Source: Escherichia coli O157:H7 (GTDB lineage: Bacteria > Pseudomonadota > Gammaproteobacteria > Enterobacterales > Enterobacteriaceae). From it: a stretch of 64,000 nt of DNA. This document shows, one piece after another, positions 22,841 to 24,425 of this stretch. Position numbers and translations under genes: made by a program. The notes under the pieces are model-generated. The model saw only the letters and a program-made list of their open reading frames with translations, searched no databases and was not told the DNA's origin. The stretch lies in assembly GCF_013167455.1 (NCBI RefSeq), contig NZ_CP038328.1. One strand, given 5' to 3'. Each line of letters starts with the position of its first letter. Position 1 is the stretch's first letter.

Positions 22841-24154
22841 ATGGCAGTAAAGATTTCAGGTGTACTGAAAGACGGCACAGGAAAACCGGTAGAGAACTGC
22901 ACCATTCAACTGAAAGCCAGACGGACCAGCAGCACGGTGGTGGTGAACACGGTGGCCTCTGAAAATCCGGATGAAGTCGGTCGTTACAGCATGGACGTTG
23001 AGTACGGTCAGTACAGCGTCATTCTGTTGGTGGAGGGCTTCCCGCCGTCACATGCCGGGACCATCACCGTGTATGAAGATTCTCAACCGGGGACGCTGAA
23101 TGATTTTCTCGGTGCCATGTCGGAGGATGACGTCCGGCCGGAGGCACTGCGTCGTTTTGAACTGATGGTGGAAGAAGCGGCGCGTCACGCTGAGGAGGCG
23201 AAGAAGAATGCCGGAGAGGCGGAGACATCAGCGAGGAATGCCGGCATATCATCCAGTAAGGCGGAAGCGAGCGCGGCAAATGCTGACACTTCAGCAGGGG
23301 ATGCATTGGAGTCAGCCCGGCAGGCGGCAGAAAGTGCAGCCGCTGCAAAGCAGTCAGAGGATGCGTCCTCGTCCTCGGCTTCTGCGGCCGCTCAAAAAGC
23401 CAGTGAGTCATCACAAAGTGCAGCAGAAGCTGAATTGTCAAGAAAGACGGCAGAAAGTGCAGCCGGTAATGCAGCCAGGGATGCAACGACCGCAACAGAA
23501 AAAGCCCGGGAGTCAGCAGAAAGCGCACAGTCAGCGGAACAAAGCAGGATAGCGGCGGAAGAGGCCGTAAACCGAATCCCCACCGTGGTGGGACCTCCCG
23601 GGCCAAAGGGGGAACAGGGGCCCGCGGGTCCTCAGGGGCCGAAGGGTGATAAGGGAGAGCGCGGTGACACCGGCCCTGTCGGGGCAACCGGCGAACGGGG
23701 ACCGGCAGGTGATGCTGGTCCGGCAGGCCCGCAGGGGCCGAAAGGTGACAGGGGAGAGCGGGGAGAGACCGGTCTGACGGGAAATGCAGGTCCACAGGGT
23801 CCAAAGGGAGATACCGGTGCGGCAGGCCCGGCAGGCCCACAGGGACCGAAAGGAGAAACAGGTGCGGCTGGCCCGGTGGGGGCAACCGGACCTCAGGGAC
23901 CGAAGGGCGACCCGGGGGAGACACAAATCCGTTTTCGTCTGGGGCCGGCGAGCATTATTGAGACAAACAGCAATGGCTGGTTCCCGGATACAGATGGCGC
24001 ACTCATCACCGGACTGACCTTTCTTGACCCCAAAGATGCCACACAGGTTCAGGGGCTGTTTCGGCATTTGCAGGTCAGGTTTGGTGACGGGCCGTGGCAG
24101 GATGTTAAGGGGCTGGATGAAGTGGGCAGTGATACAGGCAGAACAGGAGAATGA
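22841..24154 (+). CDS. stf: Side tail fibre protein (Stf-like) with Ala/Ser-rich low-complexity region and collagen-like Gly-X-Y repeats
   Basis: N-terminal 100 aa near-identical to lambda Stf (MAVKISGVLKDGTGKPV.NCTIQLKARR...); a run of about 37 G-X-Y triplets in the middle. Confidence 0.8.
   Translation: MAVKISGVLKDGTGKPVENCTIQLKARRTSSTVVVNTVASENPDEVGRYSMDVEYGQYSVILLVEGFPPSHAGTITVYEDSQPGTLNDFLGAMSEDDVRPEALRRFELMVEEAARHAEEAKKNAGEAETSARNAGISSSKAEASAANADTSAGDALESARQAAESAAAAKQSEDASSSSASAAAQKASESSQSAAEAELSRKTAESAAGNAARDATTATEKARESAESAQSAEQSRIAAEEAVNRIPTVVGPPGPKGEQGPAGPQGPKGDKGERGDTGPVGATGERGPAGDAGPAGPQGPKGDRGERGETGLTGNAGPQGPKGDTGAAGPAGPQGPKGETGAAGPVGATGPQGPKGDPGETQIRFRLGPASIIETNSNGWFPDTDGALITGLTFLDPKDATQVQGLFRHLQVRFGDGPWQDVKGLDEVGSDTGRTGE
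23591..23920 (+). repeat. Collagen-like Gly-X-Y triplet repeat tract within the stf coding sequence
   Basis: Protein residues about 251-360: GPPGPKGEQGPAGPQGPKGDKGERGDTGP...; the DNA shows a matching 9-nt periodicity. Confidence 0.8.
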
Positions 24155-24155
24155 C

Positions 24156-24425
24156 ATGAATATACTAAAAAAACTTATGCAGCGTCTGTGTGGTTGCGGA
24201 AAGCATGATGGCCGTGAACACGTGCAGTCGCTTACAGCACAACTGCGACTGGGGCCGGCAGACATCCTGGAGTCCGATGAGAATGGTATTATTCCGGAGC
24301 AGGACAGGGTAATCACGCAGGTGGTGATACTGGATGCGGATAAAAAGCAGATACAGTGCGTGGTAAGACCGCTGCAAATCCTGCGTGCTGACGGGACGTG
24401 GGAAAATATTGGCGGGATGAAGTAA
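24156..24425 (+). CDS. Small ORF (89 aa) paralogous to the C-terminal 60 aa of the preceding tail fibre protein
   Basis: ATG 2 nt after the stf stop; shared pattern LRLGPA.I.E...NG..P..D..IT........Q.......LQ.....DG.W; track ORF 24024..24425 includes an upstream extension overlapping stf. Confidence 0.45.
   Translation: MNILKKLMQRLCGCGKHDGREHVQSLTAQLRLGPADILESDENGIIPEQDRVITQVVILDADKKQIQCVVRPLQILRADGTWENIGGMK

What the first reader, a model, noticed from the sequence alone, without database searches (positions are those of the whole stretch)
22841..24425. Side tail fibre with collagen-like repeats followed by a separate ORF paralogous to its own C-terminal domain
The stf-like protein has a lambda-type N-terminus, then an Ala/Ser-rich region, then about 37 Gly-X-Y triplets, then a roughly 70-aa C-terminal domain. 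The next ORF (24156-24425), starting 2 nt after the stf stop, ends in a domain with the same motif pattern. This could be an alternative receptor-binding tip, a cassette left by recombination, or an assembly chaperone derived from the tip domain. Triplet repeats are also prone to length variation.
Basis: seen in the sequence. Interest (0 to 1): 0.45.

Follow-up and report, generated by a model that had tools for sequence, protein, structure and literature searches.

The report
Collagen-like tail fibre plus paralogous mini-gene
This is the well-known collagen-like side tail fibre gene of E. coli O157:H7 prophages, followed by a small, conserved, translated gene that copies the fibre's tip domain; the pair has been described before, but the small protein's job is still unproven.

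Summary
Window 22841-24154 encodes a 437-aa side tail fibre: lambda-type N-terminal domain, Ala/Ser-rich coiled coil, 37 Gly-X-Y triplets, and a 64-aa Phage_fiber_C (PfC) domain. An 89-aa ORF at 24156-24425 starts one base after the stop, and its residues 28-89 are a second PfC domain (40% identity, E 2e-13).

The pair is already known. The window is E. coli O157:H7. The fibre is EPclA (Ghosh 2012), whose PfC is a trimerisation module. The small ORF is annotated by Pfam, PGAP and PHROGs. Its Sp5 homologue, ORF68, was listed among non-essential genes and proposed as a sequence "reservoir" (Mondal 2016).

New here:
- The small ORF is a maintained gene, not a relic. In a sample of 80 loci, 75 are intact, with a conserved ATG and Shine-Dalgarno. 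pN/pS is about 0.10.
- A conserved terminator follows it.
- A 64%-identical orthologue follows an unrelated PfC-ending fibre.
- Two of its peptides occur in phi24B virion proteomics.
- The two PfC segments share only 61% nucleotide identity, which argues against homologous exchange.

Best reading: a late-expressed, dispensable, probably trimeric partner of the PfC fibre tip. Novelty is low and the function remains open.

The parts
22841..24154 (+). stf: EPclA-type collagen-like side tail fibre gene (437 aa)
   Evidence: ORF. Pfam architecture. 100% nucleotide identity to O157:H7 chromosomes, where PGAP calls it 'prophage tail fiber N-terminal domain-containing protein' WP_000279064.1. It has the same 437-aa length and the same PCoil and Col lengths (about 116 and 111 aa) as EPclA in Ghosh 2012 Table 2.
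22841..23239 (+). PfN (phage_tail_N, residues 1-133): lambda-Stf-type virion attachment domain
   Evidence: PF08400, E 3e-68, full model coverage.
23240..23590 (+). PCoil: Ala/Ser-rich trimeric coiled-coil stalk (residues 134-250)
   Evidence: 32% Ala and 20% Ser. [quoted passage not shown]
23591..23923 (+). Col: 37 uninterrupted Gly-X-Y triplets (residues 251-361)
   Evidence: Regex count. PF01391 hits. 45-nt and 9-nt DNA periodicities. The triple helix was shown by CD for EPclA (PMC3368898).
23927..24118 (+). PfC of the fibre (Phage_fiber_C, residues 363-426): trimerisation and distal knob domain
   Evidence: PF06820, E 9.8e-36. The isolated PfC 363-426 is a trimer by SEC-MALLS (PMC3368898).
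24119..24154 (+). Fibre C-terminal tail (DEVGSDTGRTGE) and stop codon; carries the Shine-Dalgarno AGGAG (24145-24149) of the small ORF
   Evidence: Sequence. The 16 nt before the ATG are AGAACAGGAGAATGAC in 76 of 80 related loci, and GGAG is kept in all 80.
24156..24425 (+). Small ORF (89 aa): free-standing PfC paralogue. Family of Sp5 ORF68 (ECs1229), 933W Z1484 and phi24B 'gp59'; PHROG 576.
   Evidence: ORF. PGAP WP_001023455.1 'phage tail fiber C-terminal domain-containing protein'. phrog_576 E 6e-60. 93% identical to the VT2-Sakai and phi24B homologues. Peptides of the identical PfC part were found in phi24B virion MS.
24156..24236 (+). N-terminal extension of the small ORF (residues 1-27): predicted short helix 3-12 plus a flexible linker
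   Evidence: AF2 helix 3-12 and low-pLDDT 13-26. More variable than the PfC part (pN/pS 0.21-0.37). The K-K-(L/I)...L-x-G-C-x-K pattern is kept in the L163 and Citrobacter rodentium orthologues.
24237..24422 (+). PfC domain of the small ORF (residues 28-89)
   Evidence: PF06820 E 6.7e-36, model positions 1-64. 40% identical to the fibre PfC. pN/pS 0.10-0.12.
24437..24468 (+). Intrinsic terminator hairpin plus T-run closing the stf-small ORF unit
   Evidence: Folded alone: -26.1 kcal/mol, z = -5.2, and 0 of 200 shuffles fold as well. The same hairpin follows the small ORF in most of the 81 related sequences examined, 79 of which show it. A different but analogous hairpin follows it in L163. It was not picked up by the consensus scan.

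Best explanation
**What the locus is.** It is the distal end of the late (tail) operon of a lambdoid prophage of E. coli O157:H7, the one inserted next to btsS/btsR (Sp15/CP-933V position).

**The fibre.** stf encodes the EPclA collagen-like side tail fibre. This is a trimeric dumbbell in which PfN attaches to the virion. A coiled coil and a 37-triplet collagen helix form the stalk. The C-terminal PfC domain nucleates trimerisation and forms the distal knob. All of this was shown experimentally for EPclA.

**The small ORF.** The 89-aa ORF is an old duplicate of PfC that has become a separate gene.
- It is translationally coupled to stf: the Shine-Dalgarno lies in the last stf codons, with a TGAcATG junction.
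- It is the last gene before a conserved terminator.
- It is made late in infection. This is inferred from its position, and protein was detected in phi24B.

**Proposed mechanism (inferred).** The protein most likely folds into a PfC-like, probably trimeric, beta knob carrying a short N-terminal helix. It probably acts as the cognate, dispensable partner of PfC-ending fibre tips, either as a cap or adaptor on the tip or as a non-essential assembly or stability helper. It is unlikely to be a silent cassette or an essential chaperone.

**How likely each step is.**
- Identity of both genes: about 0.97.
- The small ORF is a translated, selected protein: about 0.85.
- It works with the fibre tip: about 0.4.
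For: **Identity**
- Pfam, PHROG and PGAP assignments.
- 100% DNA identity to O157:H7.
- EPclA biochemistry (PMC3368898).

**A maintained gene**
- In 80 loci chosen by the fibre PfC rather than by the small ORF, all 80 have the small ORF one base after the stf stop. 75 are intact at 89 aa, with ATG and GGAG kept.
- pN/pS of its PfC part is 0.10 in that sample. The fibre PfC gives 0.27 in the sample chosen by the small ORF.
- Viral contigs encode 268 small-ORF copies and 267 fibre-PfC copies.
- 697 of 5426 complete E. coli genomes carry it, with a median of 11 copies.

**Transcription unit**
- A conserved hairpin terminator follows directly.

**Old, co-inherited pair**
- In L163, a 212-aa non-collagen fibre without PfN ends in a PfC that is 39% identical to the window's.
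- It is overlapped by 14 nt by a 79-aa small ORF that is 64% identical to the window's, again followed by a terminator.

**Tip and partner swap together**
- In Stx2-86 the fibre has a non-PfC tip. The slot after it holds a protein with a Gp38_N adhesin domain (E 2e-19) plus cor.

**Translation**
- Peptides VITQVVILDADKK and ADGTWENIGGMK, identical in the window protein, are in the phi24B purified-virion peptide table, 3 spectra each.

**Fold**
- The AF2 model is all-beta for residues 28-89, in line with CD data for PfC. Weak fold matches go to tail fibre proteins: Mu fibre 5yvq_A, and several phage tail fibres in BFVD.

**Precedent**
- Tip domains encoded as separate ORFs downstream of gpJ-like spikes have been proposed (PMC12309495).
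Against: - No direct evidence shows that the small protein binds the fibre.
- The Sp5 paper lists ORF68 among the non-essential late genes on K-12, and it is not among the nine mutants that lost plaque formation or lysogenization (PMC5155283). Recombinant EPclA and PfC trimerise alone. Any role is therefore accessory or conditional.
- The small ORF is more conserved than the fibre PfC it would contact (64% against 39% between the two systems). This is not what tight co-evolution predicts.
- Spectral counts in phi24B virions are low, and contamination from lysate cannot be excluded. The stored table is truncated, and the paper's text does not discuss the protein.
- The AF2 models are low confidence (mean pLDDT 65 for the monomer, 52 for the linked trimer). 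No fold match is significant.
- The pN/pS samples come from closely related, recombining prophages.
Confidence: 0.45

Rival explanations
1. Intragenomic reservoir. The small ORF is kept mainly as spare sequence that can replace the fibre's PfC by recombination and so vary the tip (proposal of Mondal et al. 2016).
For: - Proposed in PMC5155283.
- Rare chimeras exist. P0063 joins the collagen tract directly to the small-ORF PfC. P0131 joins the small-ORF N-terminus to the C-terminal half of the fibre PfC.
- The genes are tandem, in the same orientation, and present in about 11 copies per genome.
Against: - The two PfC segments share 61% nucleotide identity with a longest identical run of 11 nt. 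This is too little for efficient homologous exchange.
- None of 126 related stf ORFs carries a small-ORF-type PfC by domain swap.
- Among the best 120 of 177 protein clusters, only one 95-aa fragment at a contig edge does.
- The two clades stay distinct at 30-40% identity in both systems.
- The start codon, Shine-Dalgarno and N-terminal extension are conserved, and the protein is translated. A silent cassette does not need any of these.
Confidence: 0.1
2. Tail fibre assembly chaperone in the manner of lambda Tfa, Mu U or T4 gp38/gp57A. It would be needed to fold or trimerise the fibre tip and would then be released.
For: - It occupies the tfa position immediately after stf.
- One GenBank record (lambda h434 imm21) names it 'tail fiber assembly chaperone'.
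- It is translationally coupled to the fibre.
Against: - No Pfam match other than PF06820, so no Caudo_TAP homology.
- EPclA, Col-PfC and PfC form trimers when expressed alone in E. coli, and refold quickly after melting (PMC3368898).
- Sp5 ORF68 is listed as non-essential, whereas the fibre gene ORF67 is essential.
- The GenBank name rests on position only.
Confidence: 0.12
3. Frameshift or read-through isoform. A fraction of ribosomes shift +1 near the end of stf and make a 527-aa fibre with a tandem PfC-PfC tip.
For: - The small ORF's frame is open from at least 24024, and GenBank records annotate the long form.
- The stop context is UGA-C.
- A CCCC run lies at 24028-24031.
- Mutational fusions exist in databases, for example L011 at 527 aa.
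- The phi24B authors added hypothetical fusions to their MS database.
- P0151 shows that PfC-like modules can sit in tandem in one fibre.
Against: - Mondal et al. found no frameshift signal.
- The GAA codon before the stop cannot re-pair in the +1 frame, and the GGAG spacing is unlike that of prfB (my reading).
- A shift at the C-run would destroy half of the fibre PfC.
- No linker or junction peptide was found in the stored part of the phi24B table.
- The small ORF has its own strong Shine-Dalgarno and ATG.
Confidence: 0.05
4. A protein with a role unrelated to the fibre. Examples are a released soluble knob that masks receptors on debris or neighbouring cells, or a moron-like factor linked to the effector loci that often follow it.
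For: - It is more conserved than the fibre tip.
- It is retained beside type III effector genes in prophage remnants of Citrobacter rodentium where the fibre is truncated.
- It lies at the border with effector cargo in lambda h434 imm21, L082 and L163.
Against: - It has no signal peptide or lipobox (sequence).
- There is no match in PADLOC.
- It always sits inside the late unit, upstream of the terminator.
- It is always paired with a PfC-ending fibre where the fibre is present.
- Retention in remnants can be hitch-hiking.
Confidence: 0.15

Closest known systems
EPclA (EHEC prophage collagen-like protein A; e.g. ECs2717, ECs2941), Ghosh et al. 2012, PMC3368898
   Same: Same protein family and architecture (PfN-PCoil-Col-PfC), same length (437 aa) and the same collagen length (111 aa). 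The window gene is the copy in the prophage next to btsS.
   Different: Nothing material. It is an allele of the described protein.
Sp5 (VT2-Sakai) ORF68 / ECs1229, 933W Z1484, phi24B 'hypothetical tail fiber protein' (ADN68460, 'gp59')
   Same: Orthologues of the small ORF: 89 aa, 93% identical, with a PfC part identical to phi24B's. Each lies directly after the collagen-like fibre gene. ORF68 was described as a PfC-only polypeptide, non-essential, and a possible reservoir (PMC5155283).
   Different: Those copies follow the 645-aa EPclB fibre of short-tailed Stx2 phages. Here the ORF follows the 437-aa EPclA of a long-tailed lambdoid prophage, where no deletion has been tested.
Lambda Stf-Tfa, Mu S-U and T4 gp37-gp38 fibre/partner gene pairs
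   Same: A fibre gene is followed immediately by a small cognate gene. The tip domain and its partner travel together as a cassette. Stx2-86 has a Gp38_N protein in this slot.
   Different: Those partners are not homologous to the fibre tip they serve, and several are required for assembly. Here the partner is a paralogue of the tip domain and is dispensable in the one system tested.
Separate small Ig-like ORFs downstream of gpJ-like tail spikes (Dhillonvirus, Traversvirus; PMC12309495)
   Same: A domain resembling the C-terminal receptor-binding domain of a tail protein is encoded as its own small ORF just downstream, and is predicted to dock as a trimer.
   Different: It involves a different fold, a different tail protein (the central spike or needle rather than the side fibre), and rests on structure prediction only. 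Here the upstream fibre still keeps its own copy of the domain.
Invertible tail-fibre segments (Mu G, P1 C, e14 P) and diversity-generating retroelements
   Same: A second copy of the fibre's C-terminal region lies next to the fibre gene.
   Different: Here the copy is in direct orientation. There is no invertase, no crossover sites and no reverse transcriptase. The copies share only 61% nucleotide identity, and the second copy has its own start codon and is translated.

Membership tests
EPclA-type collagen-like prophage side tail fibre (Ghosh 2012) | N-terminal PfN (PF08400) domain | tested here: met
   PF08400, residues 1-133, E 3e-68.
EPclA-type collagen-like prophage side tail fibre (Ghosh 2012) | A low-complexity Ala/Ser-rich PCoil of about 116 aa, then a single uninterrupted collagen domain (111 aa in most O157 copies) | tested here: met
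   Residues 134-250 are 32% Ala and 20% Ser. Residues 251-361 are 37 Gly-X-Y triplets. These match Table 2 of PMC3368898.
EPclA-type collagen-like prophage side tail fibre (Ghosh 2012) | C-terminal PfC (PF06820) domain | tested here: met
   PF06820, residues 363-426, E 9.8e-36.
EPclA-type collagen-like prophage side tail fibre (Ghosh 2012) | Forms a trimer with a collagen triple helix and a coiled coil | not testable with these tools
   Shown for recombinant EPclA by AUC, SEC-MALLS, CD and EM (PMC3368898). Inferred here from near identity.
Phage_fiber_C (PF06820) domain family / PHROG 576 (small ORF) | Full-length match to the 64-position PfC profile | tested here: met
   Residues 28-89 match model positions 1-64, E 6.7e-36. 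phrog_576 matches 1-89 of 89, E 6e-60.
Phage_fiber_C (PF06820) domain family / PHROG 576 (small ORF) | Trimerisation, as shown for the fibre's PfC | tested here: inconclusive
   The linked-trimer AF2 model had mean pLDDT 52 and pTM 0.49, and only one of five models folded the domains. No experiment exists for the small protein.
Tail fibre assembly chaperones (lambda Tfa / Mu U; Pfam Caudo_TAP) | Sequence homology to Caudo_TAP | tested here: not met
   The Pfam scan at E <= 10 returns only PF06820.
Tail fibre assembly chaperones (lambda Tfa / Mu U; Pfam Caudo_TAP) | Required for fibre folding or function | tested here: not met
   From the literature, not my own test. EPclA and PfC trimerise alone (PMC3368898). 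Sp5 ORF68 is listed as non-essential, whereas the fibre ORF67 is essential (PMC5155283).
Tail fibre assembly chaperones (lambda Tfa / Mu U; Pfam Caudo_TAP) | Gene located immediately downstream of the fibre gene | tested here: met
   1-nt gap in 80 of 80 loci. 14-nt overlap in L163.
Invertible alternative fibre C-termini (Gin/Cin/Pin systems) | Alternative C-terminal segment in inverted orientation, flanked by inverted crossover sites, with an adjacent invertase gene | tested here: not met
   The copy is in the same orientation. No long inverted repeats flank it. No recombinase ORF lies between stf and btsS.
Diversity-generating retroelement (VR/TR pair) | Near-identical template repeat differing mainly at adenines, plus a reverse transcriptase | tested here: not met
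   The copies share 61% nucleotide identity, with a longest identical run of 11 nt. No RT gene is present in the region.
Programmed frameshift products (lambda G/GT, prfB type) | A slippery site in the correct register, with a stimulatory element, leading into the downstream frame | tested here: inconclusive
   The only XXXYYYZ heptamer (24029) is in the wrong register, and a -1 shift there would not reach the small ORF's frame. The stop-proximal GAA cannot re-pair in +1. Mondal et al. found none. No junction peptides were found in the truncated MS table. Low-level shifting is not excluded.

The most novel reading that the evidence does not exclude
The fibre tip is split. The 89-aa protein would be a detachable distal module that docks, through its N-terminal helix and linker, onto the PfC knob or the 11-residue tail of the collagen-like fibre. 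There it would supply or tune receptor specificity, for example on natural O-antigen-bearing hosts. That would explain why it is invisible in K-12 plaque assays yet is kept, under strong constraint, in about 11 copies in EHEC genomes. It would be a gp38-like adhesin that arose by duplication of the very domain it caps.
Probability: 0.2. Interest if true: 0.5.

Novelty: already known. Interest (0 to 1): 0.22.

Why it matters
These collagen-like fibres sit on Shiga-toxin phages and on the many lambdoid prophages that carry type III effectors in EHEC, EPEC, E. albertii and Citrobacter rodentium. How they recognise hosts bears on the spread of stx and effector genes.

The fibre itself is characterised. 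The receptor of its PfC knob is still unknown, and recent work argues that it is not BamA (phi24B preprint). The small PfC paralogue is a conserved, translated protein with no assigned function. Knowing whether it sits on the fibre tip would help identify the real receptor-binding parts of these phages.

As a scan finding it is ordinary. The paralogy is captured by Pfam and PGAP names and was noted in print in 2016.

Tried and rejected
- **Structure prediction.** The AF2 monomer (pLDDT 65) and a Gly/Ser-linked trimer (pLDDT 52) were too uncertain. Foldseek against PDB gave no significant hit: the best was the Mu tail fibre 5yvq_A at E 0.21 for the monomer, and nothing meaningful for the trimer. 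BFVD gave only weak hits to tail fibres. I use these only as consistent with a fibre-tip beta domain.
- **Sequence search of PDB** with the PfC profile found nothing.
- **PADLOC** found no defence-system match. **NCBIfam** has no model for the small ORF.
- **Exhaustive profile search** of 1.84 billion representative proteins gave only 88 clusters, mostly fragments. No deep alignment could be built.
- **Locus-tag literature search** was mostly noise. It yielded only a microarray table confirming the names Z1484/ECs1229.
- **Lipoprotein or secreted-protein idea** for the N-terminal CGCG motif is rejected. There is no hydrophobic h-region, and Cys14 varies (C to Y or R) among alleles.
- **DGR and invertible-segment models** are rejected.
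- **First pN/pS estimate** was biased, because the loci had been selected by protein similarity to the small ORF. I repeated it on loci selected by the fibre PfC and excluded frameshifted fibre alleles.
- **Not run.** I did not scan genome contigs or metagenome contigs. The narrow distribution was already clear.
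Full report
**1. The observation**

The window region holds two adjacent + strand ORFs, 22841-24154 (437 aa) and 24156-24425 (89 aa). For the first, Pfam gives phage_tail_N at residues 1-133 (E 3e-68), two overlapping Collagen hits covering 251-360, and Phage_fiber_C (PF06820, 'PfC') at 363-426 (E 9.8e-36). Residues 134-250 are 32% Ala and 20% Ser, and residues 251-361 are exactly 37 uninterrupted Gly-X-Y triplets.

The second ORF matches the whole PF06820 model with residues 28-89 (E 6.7e-36). BLASTP of the two proteins aligns fibre 364-425 with small-ORF 29-88 at 40% identity, E 2e-13. 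The stf TGA (24152-24154) is followed by one base and then the ATG (24156).

**2. Where it comes from, and what was already known**

The 1585-bp stretch is 100% identical to E. coli O157:H7 chromosomes. The surrounding annotation is gpJ, Lom, 'prophage tail fiber N-terminal domain-containing protein', 'phage tail fiber C-terminal domain-containing protein', a DinI-like gene, then btsS/btsR. This is the lambdoid prophage at the yehV-side position.

The fibre is the EPclA protein of Ghosh et al. 2012 (PMC3368898). That paper lists 437-aa copies with a 116-aa PCoil and a 111-aa collagen domain in nearly every Sakai and EDL933 lambdoid prophage. It also showed several things by experiment:
- EPclA is a trimeric dumbbell.
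- The Ala/Ser region is a trimeric coiled coil.
- The Gly-X-Y tract is a true collagen helix, with Tm 42 degrees C.
- The isolated PfC (363-426) is itself a trimerisation module that re-nucleates the helix.

The small ORF has also been noticed. Mondal et al. [quoted passage not shown] They listed it among non-essential late genes, found no programmed frameshift signal, and suggested an 'intragenomic reservoir'. Its deletion is not among the nine mutants that lost plaque formation and lysogenization on K-12, whereas the fibre gene ORF67 is. The Sp5 and phi24B copies are 93% identical to the window protein, and identical over the PfC part in phi24B. PHROG 576 is a full-length 89-aa family labelled 'tail fiber protein'. 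The finding is therefore a correct rediscovery.

**3. How conserved the pair is**

- A scan of viral contigs found 268 stretches encoding the small ORF and 267 encoding the fibre PfC.
- In 80 loci picked by the fibre PfC, which avoids selecting on the small ORF, all 80 carry the small ORF one base after the stf stop. 75 are intact at 89 aa. All start with ATG, and the GGAG six bases upstream is kept.
- 697 of 5426 complete E. coli genomes carry it, with a median of 11 copies and a maximum of 15.
- Protein database hits are confined to E. coli, E. albertii and Citrobacter rodentium.
- An exhaustive HMM search of 1.84 billion representatives found only 88 clusters.
- The Gly-X-Y tract varies in length among relatives (15 to 38 triplets, more in EPclB), but 88 of 126 stf ORFs are the 437-aa form. 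About 16% of stf copies are truncated by frameshifts.

**4. Is the small ORF a gene or a relic?**

Five lines of evidence say it is a gene.

- *(a) Selection.* pN/pS of its PfC part is 0.10 in the unbiased sample and 0.12 in the other sample. The N-terminal 27 residues give 0.21-0.37. The fibre PfC gives 0.23-0.27 after removing frameshifted alleles.
- *(b) Translation signals* are conserved.
- *(c) A terminator closes the unit.* A hairpin terminator (24437-24468; -26.1 kcal/mol, z = -5.2) follows directly and is conserved in most of the related sequences examined. The small ORF is therefore the last gene of the stf unit.
- *(d) A divergent orthologous pair exists.* In L163, a 212-aa fibre with no PfN and no collagen ends in a PfC only 39% identical to the window's. 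It is overlapped by 14 nt by a 79-aa ORF that is 64% identical to the window's small ORF, again followed by a hairpin with a T-run. The duplication is therefore old. The small-ORF clade is distinct from the fibre-PfC clade and is the more conserved of the two.
- *(e) The protein is made.* The supplementary peptide table of the 2026 phi24B cryo-EM and proteomics preprint lists VITQVVILDADKK and ADGTWENIGGMK, mapped to 'gp59_start' and the 135-aa alternative-frame ORF, in purified virions with 3 spectra each. The main text does not discuss this protein. The stored table is truncated, so abundance and virion association remain uncertain.

**5. The reservoir, chaperone and frameshift ideas**

*Reservoir.* The two PfC-coding segments share 61% nucleotide identity, and the longest identical run is 11 nt (CTGGGGCCGGC). 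No stf among 126 has a swapped tip. Only rare chimeras exist: P0063, a 95-aa fragment at a contig edge, and P0131. Occasional illegitimate exchange happens, but it cannot explain the conservation of a translated ORF.

*Essential chaperone.* This is contradicted by self-assembly of EPclA and PfC, by the non-essential status of Sp5 ORF68, and by the absence of Caudo_TAP homology.

*Frameshift fusion.* The small ORF's frame is open from at least 24024, and a C4 run sits at 24028-24031. Mutational fusions occur, for example the 527-aa ORF in L011. However, there is no slippery site in register, and a shift at the C-run would destroy half of the fibre PfC. No junction or linker peptides appear in the stored phi24B table, although its authors put hypothetical fusions into their search database.

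**6. What it most likely does**

The constant pairing with PfC-ending fibres on two unrelated fibre backbones points to a cognate partner of the PfC tip. So does the replacement of 'PfC tip + small ORF' by 'other tip + Gp38_N adhesin + cor' in the sister phage Stx2-86. By homology to a proven trimerisation module, the protein is probably a trimeric beta knob. AF2 gives an all-beta fold for residues 28-89 with an N-terminal helix at 3-12, at low confidence. Weak fold matches go to phage tail fibres.

Whether it caps the tip, adds a binding surface, or merely helps assembly or stability is not known. It is dispensable on K-12. The phi24B study notes that the fibre's C-terminal domain could not be resolved or confidently predicted and is probably not the BamA binder. 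So the partner question is open for the whole family.

I put about 0.4 on a fibre-tip partner role and about 0.85 on it being a translated, selected protein.

**7. Verdict**

Novelty: already known. The interest is modest and lies only in the unresolved function of a highly conserved, multicopy, translated PfC paralogue.

Noticed in passing
window 24024-24155 (frame of the small ORF), C-run at 24028-24031; L011; L169 2010-2399: The small ORF's reading frame stays open for about 44 codons upstream, overlapping the fibre's PfC. GenBank records of VT2-Sakai and phi24B annotate this long form of about 130 aa. Indel alleles at or near a CCCC run fuse stf to the small ORF (one 527-aa ORF, plus two frameshifted alleles). 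The phi24B authors added such hypothetical fusions to their MS database.
   Followed up: partly
window 23064-23924 (-) and 23531-24439 (-): Two long antisense ORFs (286 and 302 aa) lie over the collagen and PfC regions. They are most likely stop-free artefacts of the GC-rich Gly-X-Y coding, yet the phi24B record annotates one of them as a CDS (vb_24B_37c).
   Followed up: no
window 22128-22147, 22803-22824 and 24437-24468: Terminator-like hairpins with T-runs follow J, lom and the small ORF. As a result J, lom and stf+small ORF are separated by hairpins, and stf+small ORF forms its own bracketed unit. This presumably depends on Q antitermination.
   Followed up: partly
L161 (lambda h434 imm21, OM418627.1) 4448-7873: This laboratory hybrid phage carries the same stf/small-ORF pair. 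It is followed by fragments and copies of type III effector genes (NleB-, NleC- and NleH-like) before int.
   Followed up: no
L164-L167 (Citrobacter rodentium) 5479-6237: A prophage remnant keeps a truncated fibre (161-166 aa, with PfN and PfC matches but no collagen) plus a 78-aa small-ORF orthologue. It lies next to nleG, an IpaB_EvcA-family gene and a lymphostatin-like gene.
   Followed up: partly
P0151 (565 aa, source unknown): A collagen-repeat protein carries four tandem repeats resembling the second half of PfC (...VVVLDAD...GILRVRQADGTWKEIPAIKG). This shows that PfC-like modules can be arrayed serially in one fibre.
   Followed up: no
P0063 (L082 4-291), P0131, P0066, P0085, P0024: Rare chimeric ORFs join other sequences to the small ORF. 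The partners are the collagen tract, a J fragment, a Lom fragment and a CII-like fragment. Several junctions lie near ...GPADILESD. P0131 is the reverse chimera: small-ORF N-terminus plus the fibre PfC C-terminal half. These may be deletions by microhomology or assembly artefacts.
   Followed up: partly
window 24427-24515 and 24793-25041 (-): Between the small ORF and btsS, PGAP annotates a frameshifted gene fragment and a DinI-like gene. No effector genes follow the small ORF in this prophage, unlike in many relatives.
   Followed up: no
L168 (Stx2-86) 9174-12056: After its collagen tract, the EPclD fibre gp21 has a non-PfC C-terminus containing '...IRSDKRNKRNAIRID...'. It is followed by a Gp38_N-domain protein and cor. 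The C-terminal motif resembles self-cleaving intramolecular chaperone domains from memory, but I did not test this.
   Followed up: partly
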